Counted from the stretch's first letter, positions 5,082 to 12,053 are shown. The stretch is DNA of 64,000 bases from Candidatus Omnitrophota bacterium (GCA_030695905.1 JAUYOL010000001.1:66023-130022); one strand, 5' to 3'. Notes: generated by a model not told the origin, from the sequence alone. Made by a program: numbers and translations.

Positions 5082-7130
5082 TTATCTTTCTTTTTTTAGC
5101 ACACCGAGGAAAGCATCCACTATCTTTGGGTCGAATTGAGTGCCCGCGCCGCTTTTAATTATTTTTACCGCTTCTTTTTTTGGAAGCGCTTTGCGGTAGG
5201 GGCGGTCTGAAATTAGCGCCTGGTAGACGTCGGCTATCGCGACTATGCGCGCGCCTATAGGTATGGACTCCTTTCTTAGGCTGTGCGGATATCCTTTGCC
5301 GTTCCACCACTCATGATGGTGGAGAATGACAGGTATAATGTCGCGCAGGGAGTGTATCGGCCTTACAATATCAGCGCCTATCTGGGGGTGCTCTTTAATA
5401 ATTTCTCTTTCCTGTTTCGTTAGTTTCCCGGCCTTAAGAAGGATCTTTTCGGGTACGCCGATCTTCCCAAGGTCGTGCAGCACCGAAGCTTCTTTTATGA
5501 CTTCTATCTTATCTTTTGGCAGGCCAAGCGAATGGGCTATACCCGTAGCGTAGTGGATCGTTTTTTCCACATGCTCACCGGTATAACGGTCTTTTAATTC
5601 GATAGTTTTAGCGAAAGCAAATATAGCTTCTATTACGCTTTGATTCCCGCGGGCGGTAAGCTTTTTTATCTTATTCTTTAACACATCAACACCTGGTTCT
5701 TCCTGTGGCTGTGTGATATCTTTTTTTATTTCCAGATCCACATATGAATATACCCTGTCTCCACCGTCTTCTTTGGCCTTATTCAGTATCTGGTCAGCTA
5801 TGTCGATAAAGTCGATTCCGCAATCGATTCTTTTATCGATAGGGTATGAACTGACTGCCGCGCTTGCCTTGATCTTTACACTGTGTTTTTTATCACCAAA
5901 ACCATGCAAGCGTATCATGTCGAGTATTCTTTGGGCCAGGGTGAGCGCTTCATATTTTCCGGTACCTGGAGATATGATAATAAACTCCTCTCCGCCGAAC
6001 CTTATCACTATATCGTAAACGCGGACCTCTTTTTTTAATAACCTTGCGAACTGTTTTAATATTGTATCGCCGAACTGGTGCCCATAGACATCGTTTATCG
6101 ACTTGAAATAATCTATATCCATCATGATTACAGAAAGCTCCTGGGAGTGTCTTTTTGCGCGCTCAAGCTCCGACTTCATTGCGTCAACAAGATAGTGATG
6201 ATTGTATAGACCGGTATGAGAGTCTTTCAAGGCAAGATGTTTCAGGTTTTCATTTGCCTTCGAAAGCGCGCTGTTTAATTCCATTATCTTATTTTCCGAT
6301 TCTTTGCGCTCTGTAATATCGCGTGTTATCGCGAGCAGCTGATACTTGCCTCCTATGATAGCGCGCCTTAAGCTTACCTCTACCCAAAATGTCCTGCCTA
6401 CCTTATCTTTAACGAGCTGCTCGAAAAGCTGTGGTTGTCCGCGCCCTGCTTTATCATAACTATCCCATACATTCTTTAACATATGAGGGCTCTCTCCCGG
6501 AATGACGGCCTGCAGGTCGAGCCCAGCCATCTCTTCCCTGCGGTAACAAAAAAGCTCGCAAGCTCTTTCATTCGCGTCGATTATTTTATATGTTTTTATA
6601 TCCCTTATTATTATCGCGTCATTCGCTGACTCGAATATAGAATGGTAGCTCTCTTCCGATATTCTGCACGCGTTCTCCATCTCCTTGCGTTGCGTGATAT
6701 CATGGAATACGCCCTGCACCACTTCCTTGTTTTCTATTTCTGTAATAGAACAGCTTATAAGCACCGTCTTTATCTTTCCGGATTTTGTTACTATATCCGC
6801 TTCATCCACACCCATTTTATTAAAAGCCTGGCCGAAGAACATATCTTTGTAGCGCCCTGCTTCATCAGCGGGATGCAGCGTTGTCTGGTGCTGGCCTATA
6901 ATCCCATCCTTAGATCTCTCAAAAAGCTTTTCGGCAGCCTTGTTGCAGTTGATAATAATGCCTGTTTCAGGGTCGGCCCACATGATAGCGTCAAGGGCGT
7001 TCTCGAACGCGAGCCTGAACCTCTTTTCGTTTTCCTGCAATTCCTGGGTGCGGTCTCTTACCAGGTTTTCAAGATGCTCTCTGTAGCGTTTTAGCTCTTC
7101 ATTTTTTTGCTCATGTTCACTCGAGCACAT
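5082..7130 (-). CDS. PAS-PAS-GGDEF-HD-GYP c-di-GMP turnover protein
   Basis: GGDEF active site RFGGEEF. HD-GYP motifs HDLGKIGVP and HHHEWWNGKGYP. Two N-terminal PAS domains. Confidence 0.85.
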   Translation of the reverse strand: MCSSEHEQKNEELKRYREHLENLVRDRTQELQENEKRFRLAFENALDAIMWADPETGIIINCNKAAEKLFERSKDGIIGQHQTTLHPADEAGRYKDMFFGQAFNKMGVDEADIVTKSGKIKTVLISCSITEIENKEVVQGVFHDITQRKEMENACRISEESYHSIFESANDAIIIRDIKTYKIIDANERACELFCYRREEMAGLDLQAVIPGESPHMLKNVWDSYDKAGRGQPQLFEQLVKDKVGRTFWVEVSLRRAIIGGKYQLLAITRDITERKESENKIMELNSALSKANENLKHLALKDSHTGLYNHHYLVDAMKSELERAKRHSQELSVIMMDIDYFKSINDVYGHQFGDTILKQFARLLKKEVRVYDIVIRFGGEEFIIISPGTGKYEALTLAQRILDMIRLHGFGDKKHSVKIKASAAVSSYPIDKRIDCGIDFIDIADQILNKAKEDGGDRVYSYVDLEIKKDITQPQEEPGVDVLKNKIKKLTARGNQSVIEAIFAFAKTIELKDRYTGEHVEKTIHYATGIAHSLGLPKDKIEVIKEASVLHDLGKIGVPEKILLKAGKLTKQEREIIKEHPQIGADIVRPIHSLRDIIPVILHHHEWWNGKGYPHSLRKESIPIGARIVAIADVYQALISDRPYRKALPKKEAVKIIKSGAGTQFDPKIVDAFLGVLKKER

Positions 7131-7166
7131 TTTTACATGTCTCCTAATACGGGTAAAAAAGCAGGC

Positions 7167-7529
7167 TTATCTAATAAACATTCTTATTTTTTCGAGTAGA
7201 TCTGCCGGCTCAAAAGGCTTTAATATGTAGTCATCGGCGCCCATCTCTTTTATTCTTTCAGGGACACGGATGATACTTGCGGTAAATATTATAATAGGTA
7301 TGTGTTTAAAATGTGGATCGGACTTTAATTTTTTGCAAAGCACATCCCCCTGCATTTCGGGCAGAAGCAGGTCCAGCAGTATCAGATCCGGCATCTCTGT
7401 TTTCAGCAGTTTAAGAGTCTCCTCACTGCTCGTCGTCGATAATATGTCGTAGCCGGCGGCTTTTAGTCTCTCCTGGGCGAGGGTAAGAAGATCCGGTTCG
7501 TCCTCAACTATTAGTATTTTTTTTGCCAT
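7167..7529 (-). CDS. response regulator receiver protein (stand-alone REC)
   Basis: MAKKILIVEDE ... LLDLLLP ... K-P REC signature. Start trimmed to the internal ATG abutting the upstream kinase stop. Confidence 0.75.
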   Translation of the reverse strand: MAKKILIVEDEPDLLTLAQERLKAAGYDILSTTSSEETLKLLKTEMPDLILLDLLLPEMQGDVLCKKLKSDPHFKHIPIIIFTASIIRVPERIKEMGADDYILKPFEPADLLEKIRMFIR

Positions 7530-7530
7530 A

Positions 7531-9399
7531 TCATCTTCTCCGTTCTGTGATTGGTAAGACAAAATGTACGGTTGTTCCCTTGCCGAATTCTGACTCGGCC
7601 CAGATCTTTCCTTTATGTATTTCAATAATCTCTTTTGATATGGCAAGTCCTAACCCTGATCCGCCAACCTTTCTTTCCACTTGAGAAAACCGCTTGAATA
7701 GTTTGGGCATATCATCCTCTTTTATTCCACAGCCGGTATCGGTTACCGATACCTGGATGGAATTATCGCCCTTTATGGAAGCTATCGTTATACTGCCCCT
7801 TTTTGTATACTTTACAGCATTGCTGATGAGATTGTTCAGGACCTCTATAATCTTGTCTTTATCGAAATTGGCACGAGGCAACTTATTTTCAAGTTTGAGA
7901 TTAAATTTTAGCCTATTCTTGCTTACCAGGGAAAGCATTGCCAGATGGACCTCGCGGATGATGTCGTTAATATTGTTTTCCTCGAATTTAAGTTTCATCA
8001 TACCAGCGTCGAGCTTTTGGAAGTCCAGCACCTGATTGATTAATCTCGTAAGCCTGTCTATATTCCTTTTTGCTATATCAAGTATATCCTTTTTTTCCGT
8101 ATCTATAATGCCGGTCCTACTTTCGGTGACAAGAGAGAAAGCCTCCTTTATAGCGCTTAGCGGGGTTCTAAGCTCATGAGATACCATATTCATAAAGTCT
8201 TCTTTTGCCGTTATCGCCTGTTTGCGCTCGGTGATGTCACGCACTATAGAAAGAAGGCAGTACCTTCCTCCTATAATCGCCCGTTTTGCGTTGACTTCGA
8301 CCCAGAACTCCCTGCCGAATTTATCTTTAGTAAACCATTCAAAAATCTGTGGTATGCCGGAAGCCGCCTGTTCGTAAAACTGCCTGCATTTTTCAGCGGT
8401 ATATTGGCCAAAACTAATGTAAAAAGGCTCCAAATTTAACCCTATCATTTCCTCTTTAGGATAGCAAAAGATTTCACATGCTTTGCTGTTAACATTTATT
8501 ATGTGGTATGTTTTGATATCGCGAATAATAATTCCGTCATTCGCTGACTCGAATATAGAGTGGTAGCTCTCTTCCGATACCCTGCAAGCGTTCTCCATCT
8601 CCTTGCGCTGCGTAATATCGTGGAATACGCCCTGCATGACCCGTTTATTTTCTATCTCTGTCATAGAGCAGCTTATGAGCACTATTTTTATCTTTCCGGA
8701 TTTTGTCACTATAGTAGCTTCATCCACACCCATTTTGTTCAAAATTTGATTTTTAAACATTTCGGAATAACGTTCTTTTTCATTAGTAGGATGCAGAGTT
8801 GTTTGGTGACGGCCTATTAGTTCATCCTTAGATTTCTCAAAAAGCTTTTCGGCAGCCTTGTTGCAGTTGATAATAATGCCTGTTTCCGGGTCGGCCCACA
8901 GGATAGTGTCAAGGGCGTTCTCAAAAGCGAGCCGAAACTTTTTTTCACTTTCCTGCAGCGCTCGGGTACGATCACCCAGCAATTTTTCCAGATTTTGTTT
9001 ATATAAATTCGTCTCCGAGTCTTTTCTTATGCGCTCACTTATGTCCTCCACCATCTCAACAGCGGCTGTAATATTACCATTGGCATCCTTCAGAGGAGAA
9101 GAGACGATTCTGTAATTGACTATACGGCCGCCCACAGGTGTTTGTGTTATCGCTTCATGCACAAGCCCGTCTTTTAGAGTCAGACAAGTAGGGCAGTAAG
9201 AACAGATGCTATCGCGGGGAGGATTATTAAATGTGCGATAGCATATAGGTTTTTTTGCGACATCTATATAGGGGAACCACTGCCTCATCTTTGTGTTAAG
9301 CGCAAGTATCTGCATATCTGGGCTTATTAGTGCAATGCCTATATCTATGCTATCAACCATGCCCCTGCATATCTCATCAGTTAATCTGAATGTTTCCAT
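7531..9399 (-). CDS. PAS-domain sensor histidine kinase
   Basis: H-box SHELRTPL. HATPase_c with a GSGLGLAISK G2 box. Three PAS repeats. Confidence 0.85.
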   Translation of the reverse strand: METFRLTDEICRGMVDSIDIGIALISPDMQILALNTKMRQWFPYIDVAKKPICYRTFNNPPRDSICSYCPTCLTLKDGLVHEAITQTPVGGRIVNYRIVSSPLKDANGNITAAVEMVEDISERIRKDSETNLYKQNLEKLLGDRTRALQESEKKFRLAFENALDTILWADPETGIIINCNKAAEKLFEKSKDELIGRHQTTLHPTNEKERYSEMFKNQILNKMGVDEATIVTKSGKIKIVLISCSMTEIENKRVMQGVFHDITQRKEMENACRVSEESYHSIFESANDGIIIRDIKTYHIINVNSKACEIFCYPKEEMIGLNLEPFYISFGQYTAEKCRQFYEQAASGIPQIFEWFTKDKFGREFWVEVNAKRAIIGGRYCLLSIVRDITERKQAITAKEDFMNMVSHELRTPLSAIKEAFSLVTESRTGIIDTEKKDILDIAKRNIDRLTRLINQVLDFQKLDAGMMKLKFEENNINDIIREVHLAMLSLVSKNRLKFNLKLENKLPRANFDKDKIIEVLNNLISNAVKYTKRGSITIASIKGDNSIQVSVTDTGCGIKEDDMPKLFKRFSQVERKVGGSGLGLAISKEIIEIHKGKIWAESEFGKGTTVHFVLPITERRR

Positions 9400-9409
9400 A
9401 TTTAGCTAC

Positions 9410-9784
9410 TTAAGCCTTCCCGCTCTCTCTATCTATTATCTCTACTATGCTATCAAGCAGAGAATCCATGCTTGCCGATTTTTCCAGATATTCATCCGCG
9501 CCGGAATATTTGGCTATGGGAGCCGATATTGCCGGATAGCCGGTGAGAAACACGGTTTTTGTATCAAGCTTATTCGTTTTAACATACTTAGCGAGCTCCA
9601 AGCCCGTAAGCCCCGGCATATTAAAGTCCACAAATATTATGTCGTAGTGGTTACTTTTTATCATATCCAATGCCCTGTCTCCGTCATAAGCAAAATCCAC
9701 GCGATGGCCTTTTCCCGTTAAAAATTTCTTTATTATACCTATGAGATCCTTATCGTCATCGGCGATAAGTATATTCTTTTCCAT
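9410..9784 (-). CDS. response regulator receiver protein (CheY-like)
   Basis: ILIADDD ... DIIFVDFNMPGLTG ... REC fold, 124 aa. Confidence 0.8.
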   Translation of the reverse strand: MEKNILIADDDKDLIGIIKKFLTGKGHRVDFAYDGDRALDMIKSNHYDIIFVDFNMPGLTGLELAKYVKTNKLDTKTVFLTGYPAISAPIAKYSGADEYLEKSASMDSLLDSIVEIIDRESGKA

Positions 9785-9799
9785 ATTGGTACCTCCAAT

Positions 9800-10255
9800 C
9801 TATTTGGGCGGTATTTGGTTTAATAAGAGCCAATATAGCCCCAGCTCCGAGACCGCCGTGACAAACTTATCAAACTCTACGGGCTTGGGTATGTAGCTAT
9901 TTGCCCCATATTTATAGCTTTTAACCAGGTCCTCCTCCTCTTTTGAAGAGGTCAGTATTACAACGGGTATTGATTTGGTTTTATCGTCCGTCTTTATTTT
10001 GCGCAATACTTCCAGGCCGTCCACCTTTGGAAGCTTTATATCGAGCAGTATTACTTTCGGCCTGATGCCGTTATTGCCATTCTTTTTTGCCGCATATGCG
10101 CCTTCGTGGAAGATAAAGTCGAGGGCCTCAGCGCCGTCCTTTACCACATAAACTTTATTGGCAAGCCTTCGCTTTTCTAAAACCCTCAAGATAAGCTCGA
10201 TATCGTCAGGATTATCCTCAACCAAAAGAATGTCAGCCGCTTCTTTTATTCCCAT
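9800..10255 (-). CDS. response regulator receiver protein
   Basis: [10 protein letters not shown] ... [12 protein letters not shown] ... YIPKP REC signature. Start set at the internal Met, overlapping the upstream kinase by 23 nt. Confidence 0.75.
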
Positions 10256-12053
10256 GGTTACCCCCTTTTTTAGGCAGCGCGAAATAAAACGTTGCCCCTT
10301 CACCGGTTTTGCCTTCTGCCCAGATCCTGCCCCCGTGCCGGTCAATGATCTGACGCGCGATAGCCAGGCCGACTCCTGTTCCCTCGAACTGGGCTTCATC
10401 ATGGAGCCTCTGGAATATTTCAAATAATTTATCCATATATTTCATATCAAATCCTACGCCGTTATCTTTCACATAATATTTATTTTCTTTCGCGTCGCTT
10501 ATACAGCCTATCTCAATAGTACCCATTTTTTTAGATCTTGTAAATTTGGCTGCGTTTGACAGTATATTGTACCAGACATGATGCATAAGGCTTGGATCGC
10601 CATTTGCGGGAGGGATATCTTTTATATCTATCTTTAATGTTCGGTCAGGCGTTATCTCATCCTTCATATCTTCTAATACACATTTTACGATTTTTTCCAT
10701 ATCGATATGGCGCATTTGTACCTTTTGGCGTCCCAAGTGCGCGAATCGAAGCAGGTCTTCTATCAGCAGGCCCATCTTTTTCACATTTTTGCGTATAGTG
10801 ACAAGGTTATGCTTGCCGGCATCATCGAGCTTATCACCATAATCTTCCAGTAGCATACGGCTAAATCCGTCTATTGATCGAAGAGGGGCCCGAAGATCAT
10901 GCGATACGGAGTAATTGAAGGCATCGAGCTGTTTATTCGTCTCCTCAAGCTCCGTCGTGCGCTCTCTCGCCAATTCTTCGAGATGCCCGCGATATTGCTC
11001 TAATTCATTCTCTATCTTCTTGCGCTCGGAAATTTCCCTGCTTAATCTCTCAAGCGTGCCGGCAGTAGTCTTGGCTATATAAAATGACGCAGCGGCAGAT
11101 AGCACCAAAACAAAGACAAATATACCTATAAGAAAATTTCTTAGCGTTGTTACATCGGTAAATGCTTCGTCGCAGTCTATTTTTGCCACTATGCCCCATT
11201 CGGAAGAGGGTATATAGTCCCAGGCCGCTATAACATCCCTATTTCGATAGTCGGTCGAATGGCCGCCCCCTTTTACGCCTAATACAGCACGCTGGGCAGG
11301 TATGGCCGTTTTTTCTCCTATGCGGATCTTTTTTGTAAGAGTCGCTTTGGGATCGTGCCGAAGAGGATTTAGAAAGAGGATCTCGTTCCCTATTTTTTTG
11401 CACAGCAACGTCTCTCCGGTATTGCCCAGTCCCGTTGTGTCCTGGACAAGATTATAGAATTGGGTCATATTGACCTCGAAAACTATGACACCTACAAGGA
11501 GGCCATCGGAGCCAAGAACAGGAGCGCTTATAAGAAGCGCTGGTTTGCCTTCCCGCATCTCATCCAAAAATATATCTGTAAAATATACGCCGGTTTTTCC
11601 CTCGGAAAAGGCTTTTTGTTCCGAGTCTTGCAGGCTTCGCAGAAGATGCTTTGGGTATTGGCGGGGATTTGAAGTGTATACTATCTTTCCGGTGGGTTCA
11701 ACTAATATAATTTCGTATAGATCCAGAATGTACTGCATTGGCCTTAATTGTTCGTCCAGGGCCTCTTTGGCAGACATGAATTCAGCCTTCGATGTGTCAC
11801 CCGAAAGCCTTGTCAATATTGGCAGATTTTTCCTGATCATCCAGAAATTCTGCGCCATCTTTATGCTATTCTCAAGTCCTTTGAAGTATGTGTTGATTTT
11901 ATCTGCCTTGAAGGCTACTATGTCTTCAAGCGAGGAGATGTGATGCTTTTCAATCGATCGTGCATAGTTAATGAAAGTTAAAGCGGCAATAAGAATAGTT
12001 GGGATTAAAGCGATGGCAAGAAAAATAAAGGTAAGCCTTGACCTGATAGACAT
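10233..12053 (-). CDS. sensor histidine kinase with periplasmic Cache-like domain
   Basis: Two TM helices around a ~270-aa extracytoplasmic domain. His[13 protein letters not shown]. HATPase_c [12 protein letters not shown]. Confidence 0.85.

What the first reader, a model, noticed from the sequence alone, without database searches (positions are those of the whole stretch)
6515..8965. Recent duplication of a ~530-nt PAS-PAS module between the GGDEF-HD-GYP gene and the adjacent histidine kinase
Residues ~30-205 of ORF 5082..7130 and ~147-320 of ORF 7531..9399 are ~85% identical. The run includes identical stretches such as GVFHDITQRKEMENACR. Even the antisense ORFs 6642..7094 and 8560..8820 share N-termini. 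This points to module exchange or gene conversion, so both outputs (c-di-GMP turnover and phosphorelay) may read the same signal.
Basis: seen in the sequence. Interest (0 to 1): 0.55.

Follow-up and report, generated by a model that had tools for sequence, protein, structure and literature searches.

The report
One shared PAS sensor cassette
Two neighbouring signalling genes of an uncultured Omnitrophota bacterium, a histidine kinase and a c-di-GMP enzyme, carry copies of a single PAS sensor domain (not a PAS-PAS pair); the kinase is a lineage-specific chimera, which makes this a clean but ordinary case of sensor-domain shuffling.

Summary
The repeat is real: a direct repeat with an offset of 1918 nt, in frame and ungapped. 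It is smaller, older and more structured than described.

- **Extent.** Only 129 codons are close copies (window 6618-7004 and 8536-8922). They are 83% identical in amino acids and 84% in nucleotides, with dS about 0.56 and dN/dS about 0.19. This is exactly one PAS unit, from the N-cap of PAS1 to the N-cap of PAS2.
- **Flanks.** The linker helix and the rest of PAS2 are homologous, but their synonymous sites are saturated.
- **PAS2 cores are not duplicates.** In trees, gene A's PAS2 sits with orthologous GGDEF-HD-GYP proteins. The kinase's PAS2 sits with PAS-kinase proteins. Both placements have 100% bootstrap.
- **Relatives.** Syntenic relatives have one long PAS-GGDEF-HD-GYP gene here, several of them starting with the Cys-rich PAS0 domain. 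None has a kinase and receiver gene in front of it. The kinase's 3' half and the receiver gene after it match a conserved two-gene kinase cassette found elsewhere.
- **Conclusion.** The kinase is a lineage-specific chimera that acquired the c-di-GMP enzyme's sensor end. Later gene conversion probably kept PAS1 similar.
- **Function.** A shared PAS1 input to both outputs is plausible but untested, and the ligand cannot be predicted.

This is a known kind of event, of modest interest.

The parts
5082..7130 (-). Gene A (682 aa): linker helix, PAS1, PAS2, GGDEF, HD-GYP. It has GGEEF at aa 379, an RxxD I-site at aa 370, HD at aa 552 and GYP at aa 613.
   Evidence: Pfam; motifs. Self hit P0034 is annotated 'diguanylate cyclase [Candidatus Omnitrophota bacterium]'. 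The locus is syntenic with orthologues.
7005..7121 (-). Linker helix of A (aa 4-42). It is an old homologue of 8923-9039 in B and is not part of the young tract.
   Evidence: 54% aa and 59.8% nt identity with saturated synonymous sites. 9 of 21 codons are the same, against 79 of 103 in the tract (Fisher p = 0.003). It aligns with the PAS0-to-PAS1 linker of orthologues P0035 and P0036.
6618..7004 (-). PAS1 cassette, copy in A (aa 43-171). It is one PAS unit, from the PAS1 N-cap (FENALDAI) to the PAS2 N-cap (FESANDAI).
   Evidence: Changepoint analysis. 84.0% nt identity, dS 0.56, dN/dS 0.19. A and B are sisters with 99% bootstrap, inside the GGDEF-HD-GYP PAS1 clade. AlphaFold2 model pLDDT 90.5.
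6822..6869 (-). Divergent island inside the tract in A (aa 88-103), which is the F-alpha helix of PAS1.
   Evidence: 10 of the 22 tract differences lie here, as pairs spaced 3-4 residues apart, so the other helix face is identical. nt identity is about 56% and synonymous sites are saturated. 2 of 8 codons are the same, against 77 of 95 in the rest of the tract (p = 0.002).
6300..6617 (-). Rest of PAS2 in A (aa 172-277), of the GGDEF-HD-GYP lineage type.
   Evidence: 71-82% identical to orthologues but 48-51% to B. Diagnostic residues are shown. Clade support is 100%.
7167..7529 (-). Stand-alone receiver (120 aa). It starts 1 nt after the stop of B and ends 36 nt before A.
   Evidence: Pfam Response_reg; junction sequences. 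It is 72% identical over its full length to the receiver that follows the PAS-kinase in L100, and only 28-33% identical to the two upstream receivers.
7531..9399 (-). Gene B (622 aa): PAS0, linker, PAS1, PAS2', HisKA, HATPase_c. It has an H-box HELRTPL at aa 408 and N, G1 and G2 boxes.
   Evidence: Pfam; motifs. Self hit P0154. No full-length relative was found.
8536..8922 (-). PAS1 cassette, copy in B (aa 160-288).
   Evidence: Same evidence as for 6618-7004. The nearest sequences are A at 83%, then GGDEF-HD-GYP orthologues at 62-72%. No other kinase examined has this domain; the best is 36% or less.
8740..8787 (-). F-alpha island, copy in B (aa 205-220).
8218..8535 (-). Rest of PAS2' in B (aa 289-394), of the PAS-kinase lineage type. 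The chimera junction lies at its 5' edge.
   Evidence: Best hits are kinases P0178 (69%) and P0158, P0173 and P0162 (61%). HK-type signature residues begin at about B aa 322. The HK clade has 100% bootstrap and an A+B clade 0%. A 25-nt exact match (6617-6641 / 8535-8559) ends the tract.
9040..9399 (-). PAS0 of B (aa 1-120), a Cys-rich PAS (C53-x12-C66-x2-C69-x2-C72).
   Evidence: Pfam PAS_4. It is 64-69% identical to the N-terminal PAS0 of GGDEF-HD-GYP orthologues P0035, P0036, P0047 and P0049. Its sister is one of these in about 80% of bootstraps. Three of the Cys are conserved in 98-100% of 45 homologues.
9410..12053 (-). Upstream genes of the same strand cluster: receiver 9410-9784, receiver about 9800-10255, and dCache histidine kinase 10233-12053.
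   Evidence: Pfam. Gaps of 36 nt or less, or overlaps. L096 has a dCache kinase and a double receiver directly upstream of its GGDEF-HD-GYP gene.
6642..7094 (+). Antisense ORF. Like 8560-8820 (+), it is a by-product of the repeat and not a gene.
   Evidence: The two starts are exactly 1918 nt apart. Both lie entirely antisense to well-supported PAS coding sequence.

Best explanation
The window comes from a Candidatus Omnitrophota genome.

**Ancestral state (inferred).** At this conserved locus the ancestor had one long c-di-GMP turnover gene: PAS0, linker, PAS1, PAS2, GGDEF, HD-GYP.

**The rearrangement (shown in outline, mechanism inferred).** In this lineage a two-gene cassette (PAS2'-HisKA-HATPase kinase plus a 120-aa receiver) became joined to the gene's 5' sensor part. 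The crossover lay in the strongly conserved N-terminal part of PAS2. A second copy of linker-PAS1-PAS2 N-cap remained in front of PAS2-GGDEF-HD-GYP. The result is what is seen now:
- B = PAS0-linker-PAS1-PAS2'-kinase
- a receiver
- A = linker-PAS1-PAS2-GGDEF-HD-GYP
- the two PAS1 units lie 1918 nt apart as direct repeats.

**Later history (inferred, about 55-60% likely).** The linker and the F-alpha helix are saturated at synonymous sites, while the rest of PAS1 has dS of 0.2-0.6. The simplest reading is that gene conversion between the adjacent copies re-homogenised PAS1 in one or two patches, under purifying selection (dN/dS 0.19).

**Function (inferred, not shown).**
- The six genes are close-packed on one strand and probably co-transcribed.
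- PAS1 folds as a FixL/LOV-like cytoplasmic PAS with N-cap and C-terminal helices. It would pass its state down a helical spine to the kinase in B and to the cyclase/phosphodiesterase in A.
- One cytoplasmic cue could therefore drive both phosphorelay and c-di-GMP turnover.
- The Cys-rich PAS0 input now reaches only the kinase.
For: **Repeat and its limits**
- Direct repeat and ungapped alignment.
- Codon-identity changepoint at aa 43-171: 79/103 same codons inside, 27/77 outside, 0 of 500 permutations as extreme.
- Flanks differ from the tract by Fisher test: p = 0.003 on the 5' side and 6e-8 on the 3' side.
- Tract statistics: 84.0% nt, dS 0.56, dN/dS 0.19.

**Origin of the tract**
- A and B are sisters with 99% bootstrap, nested with 100% support in the PAS1 clade of GGDEF-HD-GYP proteins.

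**B is a chimera**
- PAS2 cores fall in separate clades at 100% each, and an A+B clade gets 0%.
- B's kinase half is 62% identical to L100's PAS-kinase. The receiver after B is 72% identical to L100's adjacent receiver.
- B's PAS0 groups with the PAS0 of GGDEF-HD-GYP proteins in about 80% of bootstraps.
- No full-length B relative appears in 5.8 billion proteins or 1.84 billion representatives. The colinear kinases lack both this PAS1 and PAS0.

**Synteny**
- Relatives carry a single long gene followed by FemAB-like, Nth and pyrE/pyrF/pyrD genes, as in the window. L096 also has a dCache kinase and a double receiver directly upstream. None has an intervening kinase and receiver.
- A begins where orthologues have the end of PAS0, and it has its own AGGAGA ribosome-binding site.

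**Function**
- Catalytic motifs are intact in both proteins.
- PAS1 model pLDDT is 90.5, with best fold matches to dimeric FixL PAS, short LOV proteins and YF1.
Against: - The arrangement has been seen once, on one metagenome-assembled contig, and read support could not be checked.
- No relative carries the A/B pair, so the rearrangement cannot be dated and independent homogenisation cannot be tested.
- The case that the linker is older than the tract rests on few codons (9/21). The linker tree is unresolved.
- The closest orthologues, P0035-P0037, are on short or non-syntenic contigs, so the ancestral architecture at this exact locus is inferred from several relatives rather than seen in one.
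- The tract equals exactly one PAS unit, which fits a single cassette paste as well as conversion.
- Co-transcription, a shared ligand and catalytic activity are all untested.
- The promoter and terminator scan was uninformative: 25 promoter-like sites against 17.5 expected, and 6 terminator-like sites against 7.8 expected.
Confidence: 0.7

Rival explanations
1. Single cassette paste, with no later conversion. A pre-existing kinase with PAS0-linker-PAS2'-HisKA-HATPase (the architecture of P0155) received one PAS1 unit copied from neighbouring gene A. Recombination occurred between the conserved N-cap motifs at both ends. The 84% identity simply dates that one event.
For: - The tract runs from N-cap to N-cap, which is exactly one PAS unit of 129 codons.
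- Both flanks are saturated.
- P0155 shows that a PAS0-PAS2'-kinase architecture exists.
- Orthologues of A differ in which N-terminal PAS units they carry, so PAS units are gained and lost often.
Against: - B's PAS0 and linker are colinear with GGDEF-HD-GYP orthologues and closest to them. The sister is one of these in about 80% of bootstraps, against 62-64% identity to P0155.
- The syntenic gene in relatives carries PAS0, whereas A lacks it.
- The F-alpha island inside the tract is saturated at synonymous sites (2/8 against 77/95, p = 0.002), which a single paste does not predict.
Confidence: 0.22
2. One reading: a recent duplication of the whole PAS-PAS module (about 530 nt or more) between the two genes.
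For: Homology is detectable across both PAS domains, A aa 4-277 to B aa 121-394, ungapped.
Against: - The PAS2 cores are 48-51% identical, their synonymous sites are at the codon-usage floor, and each is closer to other proteins: A to orthologues at 71-82%, B to kinases at 61-69%.
- The cores fall in separate clades at 100% bootstrap.
- dS of 0.56 in the best part is not recent.
Confidence: 0.03
3. Assembly artefact. The contig is a chimera of two related populations, and the two PAS1 copies are allelic versions of one gene that were wrongly joined.
For: This is a metagenome-assembled genome. Each protein was seen on one contig only.
Against: - The copies are only 84% identical.
- The longest exact run is 52 nt and lies mid-tract. 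Only 25 nt are exact at the 3' edge, and there is no homology at the receiver-to-A junction.
- All reading frames are intact, with translational coupling and a ribosome-binding site.
- Two independent misjoins would be needed.
Confidence: 0.05

Closest known systems
Lineage-specific expansion with domain shuffling of sensor histidine kinases (Alm, Huang and Arkin 2006, PMC1630713)
   Same: New kinases arise inside a genome by recombining upstream sensor domains. The PAS next to the kinase core stays with the core, while more N-terminal PAS domains are swapped. Here PAS2' travels with the kinase core and PAS0-PAS1 are the newcomers.
   Different: - The donor here is a different output class (GGDEF-HD-GYP), and it is the adjacent gene.
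- The donor gene appears to have been split.
- The shared unit shows a conversion-like mosaic at synonymous sites.
- That paper worked at the level of domain architecture and did not describe this.
Engineered PAS/LOV swaps in histidine kinases (YF1 = YtvA LOV on the FixL kinase; PDB 4gcz)
   Same: A PAS unit flanked by an N-cap and a C-terminal helix can be exchanged between signalling proteins and still transmit a signal. The PAS1 model's best structural matches include FixL dimeric PAS, short LOV proteins and YF1. The natural tract runs from N-cap to N-cap, so the helical linkers on both sides are preserved.
   Different: PAS1 lacks the FixL proximal His, which aligns to a Tyr, and the LOV Cys, whose position is a Gln. 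Its cofactor or ligand is therefore unknown. That the swap is tolerated functionally is an inference; the YF1 design history is from my own knowledge.
GGDEF plus HD-GYP multidomain c-di-GMP enzymes with PAS inputs (HD-GYP survey, bioRxiv 10.1101/2021.11.05.467447)
   Same: HD-GYP is commonly fused to PAS, GAF, REC and GGDEF domains. Gene A has all the catalytic motifs.
   Different: Nothing is unusual about A itself beyond the loss of PAS0 relative to orthologues.
Gene conversion (concerted evolution) between bacterial paralogues, such as tufA/tufB or rRNA operons (own knowledge)
   Same: A discrete tract of raised synonymous identity between nearby direct repeats, flanked by older homology.
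   Different: Here it covers a single domain inside two genes with otherwise different architectures. It is far from identity (dS 0.56), so conversion, if it happened, is not ongoing at a high rate.

Membership tests
PAS domain (Pfam PAS_9 / PAS / PAS_4 clan) | Profile match above the curated cut-off, and the five-strand beta-sheet with flanking helices | tested here: met
   PAS_9 scores 83 bits in A and 108 bits in B, against a cut-off of 27. The AlphaFold2 model has pLDDT 90.5 with the strand and helix order of a PAS fold. Foldseek probability is 1.0 to FixL and LOV PAS domains.
Heme-binding PAS of the FixL / DosP type | Proximal histidine on the F-alpha helix | tested here: not met
   In the profile alignment to FixL, the proximal-His position aligns to the family's conserved Tyr. 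The position is Tyr in A and B and varies among orthologues.
LOV (flavin) PAS | Conserved Cys in the GxNCRFL motif on E-alpha | tested here: not met
   The corresponding stretch is IIGQHQTTLHP in A and IGRHQTTLHP in B, with no Cys. The structural similarity is at fold level only, with 17-22% identity. The motif alignment was done by eye.
Diguanylate cyclase (GGDEF) | GG(D/E)EF active-site motif; RxxD inhibitory site five residues upstream | tested here: met
   GGEEF at aa 379 and RVYD at aa 370. Pfam GGDEF scores 126 bits. Activity was not tested.
HD-GYP phosphodiesterase | HD_5 profile match, HD dyad and GYP motif | tested here: met
   HD_5 scores 133 bits over 4-170 of 170 profile positions. 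HD at aa 552 and GYP at aa 613. The full set of metal ligands was not checked.
Sensor histidine kinase (HisKA family) | H-box histidine in HisKA; N, G1 and G2 boxes in HATPase_c | tested here: met
   HELRTPL at aa 408, NLISNAVK at aa 523, DTGCG at aa 554, GSGLGL at aa 580. Pfam HisKA scores 60 bits and HATPase_c 104 bits.
Gene-conversion tract between paralogues | A block of raised synonymous identity bounded on both sides by homologous but more diverged sequence | tested here: met
   Same-codon fraction is 77% inside. Outside it is 43% on the 5' side and 27-35% on the 3' side. The permutation test gave 0 of 500, and Fisher tests gave p = 0.003 and 6e-8.
Gene-conversion tract between paralogues | Tree of the tract conflicts with the trees of the flanks | tested here: inconclusive
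   The conflict is clear on the 3' side (PAS2 cores in different clades). That flank is better explained by the chimera junction. The decisive 5' flank (linker, 39 aa) is unresolved.
Gene-conversion tract between paralogues | The same paralogue pair in related genomes, with paralogues more alike within genomes than orthologues between genomes | not testable with these tools
   No relative with the pair was found in any collection searched.

The most novel reading that the evidence does not exclude
PAS1 is kept alike in the two proteins by repeated gene conversion because they must match. One possibility is that kinase and c-di-GMP enzyme form PAS1-mediated heterodimers. Another is that they must bind the same ligand with the same affinity. 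Either would hard-wire phosphorelay to c-di-GMP turnover.

More generally, in Omnitrophota PAS units flanked by the conserved N-cap coding motif (F-E-x-A-x-D-A-I) may behave as recombination-ready cassettes that move between output classes. In addition, recombination between the two 387-nt direct repeats would delete the kinase and receiver genes and recreate the ancestral long gene, giving a population-level switch between two wirings.
Probability: 0.12. Interest if true: 0.55.

Novelty: new member of a known kind. Interest (0 to 1): 0.3.

Why it matters
Domain shuffling is the accepted source of new bacterial sensors, but it is usually inferred from architectures long after the event. Several things are still readable here:
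- the donor (the neighbouring GGDEF-HD-GYP gene);
- the recipient cassette (PAS-kinase plus receiver);
- the crossover region (the conserved PAS2 N-terminus);
- a later conversion-like mosaic.

The case also gives a natural instance of one PAS unit working in front of two different output classes. That is the premise of engineered PAS and LOV swaps.

The practical value is limited. The organism is uncultured, the arrangement has been seen once, and the signal is unknown.

Tried and rejected
- **Module query.** It returned neither the window's own protein nor the 66-81% orthologues that the full-length query later found. My first conclusion, that the two copies were each other's closest relatives for both PAS domains and that nothing close existed elsewhere, was wrong and was dropped.
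- **Genome-contig scan.** It showed only that the PAS1 family is spread over anaerobic bacterial and archaeal genomes at about 40% identity or less over the whole module. No close relative appeared.
- **Metagenome-contig scan.** Copy-specific peptides (NKMGVDE, QRKEMEN) found nothing above 32%.
- **Tandem duplication of the upstream genes.** Rejected. The three receivers are 28-33% identical to one another, and B's kinase core is 33% identical to the dCache kinase core. L096's upstream kinase is 27% identical to B.
- **Ligand prediction.** The profile search against PDB sequences and the Foldseek search gave only generic PAS, FixL, LOV and DosP matches. The heme-His and LOV-Cys positions are not conserved, so no ligand is proposed.
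- **Long exact run.** I did not treat the 52-nt exact run as evidence of a very recent micro-conversion. Given that all 17 residues there are conserved, it is not clearly beyond chance. This was a rough hand estimate.
- **Promoter and terminator scan.** Not informative.
- **Linker tree.** The 39-column tree is unresolved.

Full report
**1. The observation**

Two minus-strand genes lie 400 nt apart with a small receiver gene between them. Gene A (5082-7130, 682 aa) is linker-PAS-PAS-GGDEF-HD-GYP. Gene B (7531-9399, 622 aa) is PAS-linker-PAS-PAS-HisKA-HATPase_c.

A direct repeat links them, at 6528-7075 and 8446-8993, with an offset of 1918 nt and about 80% nt identity. blastn gives 6580-7075 vs 8498-8993 at 80.8%. 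The proteins align without gaps from A aa 4-277 to B aa 121-394. There is no third copy in the window.

Their starts are exactly 1918 nt apart, so they are by-products of the repeat.

**2. The similarity is a mosaic**

I used codons that encode the same residue in both genes as a clock. Inside A aa 43-171, 79 of 103 such codons are the same codon. Outside, 27 of 77 are the same, which is what codon usage alone predicts. No permutation out of 500 gave as strong an interval.

| Region of A | nt identity | Synonymous sites | Other |
|---|---|---|---|
| Tract, aa 43-171 | 84.0% | dS 0.56 (0.34-0.90) | dN 0.11, dN/dS 0.19 |
| Linker, aa 4-42 | 59.8% | saturated | same codon 9/21, p = 0.003 vs tract |
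| aa 172-204 | not computed | at the codon-usage floor | 70% aa, same codon 6/22 |
| aa 205-277 | not computed | at the codon-usage floor | 48% aa, same codon 12/34 |

Sources.

Inside the tract, aa 88-103 form an island. Ten of the 22 amino-acid differences lie there, nt identity is about 56%, and 2 of 8 codons are the same against 77 of 95 elsewhere in the tract (p = 0.002). The two halves on either side of the island have dS of 0.23 and 0.60.

The tract runs from the PAS1 N-cap (FENALDAI) to the PAS2 N-cap (FESANDAI). That is exactly one PAS unit plus the helix that follows it. It ends in a 25-nt exact match.

**3. Relatives change the story**

A first search with the module alone missed all close relatives. 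Full-length searches found the window's own proteins, annotated as Candidatus Omnitrophota on a 142,762-nt contig. They also found many orthologues of A at 66-81% identity, most of which are longer than A.

Comparison by segment gave the following:
- One group of orthologues (P0035-P0040, P0042) has a PAS1 that is 58-72% identical to both A and B.
- A second group has an unrelated PAS in that position.
- All of them have a PAS2 core 60-82% identical to A's, but only 49-56% identical to B's.
- Several (P0035, P0036, P0047, P0049) carry a domain 64-69% identical to B's Cys-rich PAS0.

B's PAS2 core and kinase core are closest to PAS-kinase proteins, at 61-71%.

Bootstrapped neighbour-joining trees agree:
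- For the tract, A and B are sisters at 99%, inside the GGDEF-HD-GYP PAS1 clade at 100%.
- For the PAS2 core, A is in the GGDEF-HD-GYP clade and B in the kinase clade, each at 100%. An A+B clade gets 0%.
- B's PAS0 has a GGDEF-HD-GYP protein as sister in about 80% of replicates.

The alignment shows B switching to kinase-type signature residues after the conserved start of PAS2.

**4. B is a lineage-specific chimera**

B has no full-length relative in the 5.8-billion-protein collection or among 1.84 billion representatives read exhaustively. The colinear kinases at 44-46% identity lack PAS0. In the PAS1 position they have only a generic PAS, 36% identical or less.

In locus L100, a 455-aa PAS-kinase is 62% identical to B aa 258-619. 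It is followed directly by a 120-aa receiver that is 72% identical to the receiver downstream of B. The 3' half of B and its receiver therefore form a conserved two-gene cassette.

**5. Synteny**

Downstream of A the window has FemAB-like and Nth genes, then pyrE, pyrF and pyrD on the other strand. Contigs carrying P0040, P0042, P0043 and P0049 show the same neighbours around a single long PAS-GGDEF-HD-GYP gene. FemAB is 74% and Nth 83% identical to their L096 counterparts.

L096 also has a dCache kinase and a double receiver directly upstream of that gene, as the window has upstream of B. No relative has a kinase and receiver between them.

A begins where orthologues have the last strand of PAS0. 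Its linker resembles P0036's (64% aa), and it has its own AGGAGA ribosome-binding site.

**6. Most likely history**

An ancestral PAS0-linker-PAS1-PAS2-GGDEF-HD-GYP gene was joined to a PAS2'-kinase plus receiver cassette. The crossover lay in the conserved N-terminal part of PAS2. Linker-PAS1 was duplicated, so that both products kept it.

The saturated linker and F-alpha island next to a much younger PAS1 core suggest later gene conversion between the adjacent direct repeats. A single paste of one PAS unit into an older kinase is the main rival. The PAS0 tree, the synteny and the island count against it, but it is not excluded.

A tandem duplication of the upstream genes is rejected. An assembly artefact is unlikely but could not be tested.

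**7. Function**

Both proteins have intact catalytic motifs. Gene spacing suggests one operon; the promoter scan says nothing either way.

PAS1 models confidently (pLDDT 90.5) as a PAS with an N-cap and a long C-terminal helix. It resembles dimeric FixL PAS, short LOV proteins and YF1. It lacks the FixL proximal His and the LOV Cys, so the ligand is unknown.

The island is the F-alpha helix. The differences fall in pairs every 3-4 residues. One helix face is therefore identical in A and B (E90, R93, Y94, M97, F98, Q101, N104, K105), and the other face has diverged. That fits a conserved core or pocket with a drifting surface, so a shared PAS1 input is plausible.

The two proteins are not equivalent sensors, however. 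PAS0 is on the kinase only, and the PAS2 domains are of different origin.

**8. Comparison with what is known, and verdict**

Domain shuffling that accompanies lineage-specific expansion of kinases is well described. This includes the pattern in which the kinase-proximal PAS stays with the core while distal PAS domains are exchanged (PMC1630713). PAS-GGDEF-HD-GYP architectures are common.

This locus is a well-resolved new example, with an unusual donor-recipient pair and a conversion-like mosaic. It is not a new kind of system. Interest is about 0.3.

Noticed in passing
window 9184-9243 (B aa 53-72): The N-terminal PAS0 carries C-x12-C-x2-C-x2-C. The first three Cys are conserved in 98-100% of 45 homologues from kinases and GGDEF-HD-GYP proteins, and the fourth in only 22%. 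This could be a metal or Fe-S binding PAS, which would make it a redox or oxygen sensor.
   Followed up: partly
window 10233-12053, compared with L096 6724-9030: The dCache kinase shares its dCache part with L096's upstream kinase (52% over aa 1-300), but the kinase cores are only 30% identical and the window's protein lacks HAMP-PAS. This looks like a second domain swap in the same gene cluster.
   Followed up: partly
orthologues P0035-P0049: Orthologues of gene A differ widely in their N-terminal PAS units: PAS0-PAS1-PAS2, other-PAS1-PAS2, PAS0-PAS2, PAS0-other-PAS2, or PAS2 only. PAS2-GGDEF-HD-GYP stays at 71-85% identity. PAS units seem to turn over quickly in this family.
   Followed up: partly
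window 5082 to 4992, compared with L096 12473-16971: Relatives (L096 and the P0040 contig) have MazE, an outer-membrane factor, a membrane-fusion protein and a MacB-type ABC transporter between the GGDEF-HD-GYP gene and FemAB-like. The window has none of these.
   Followed up: no
window 9800-10423: The listed TTG start gives a 207-aa ORF that overlaps the dCache kinase by about 190 nt. The receiver domain starts at aa 65. The likely start is the ATG of [15 protein letters not shown] near 10255, which overlaps the kinase stop by about 20 nt.
   Followed up: partly
method: The word-indexed protein search with the 260-aa module returned neither the identical database protein nor its 66-81% orthologues, whereas the full-length query did. 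Negative results from short multi-PAS queries in that tool should not be trusted.
   Followed up: yes
L001-L080: The PAS1 family (motifs FRLAFENA, NCNKAAE, HQTxLHP) occurs in genomes from many anaerobic lineages. These include Bathyarchaeia, Hadesarchaea, Heimdallarchaeota, Planctomycetota and Desulfobacteria, where it is attached to different outputs.
   Followed up: no
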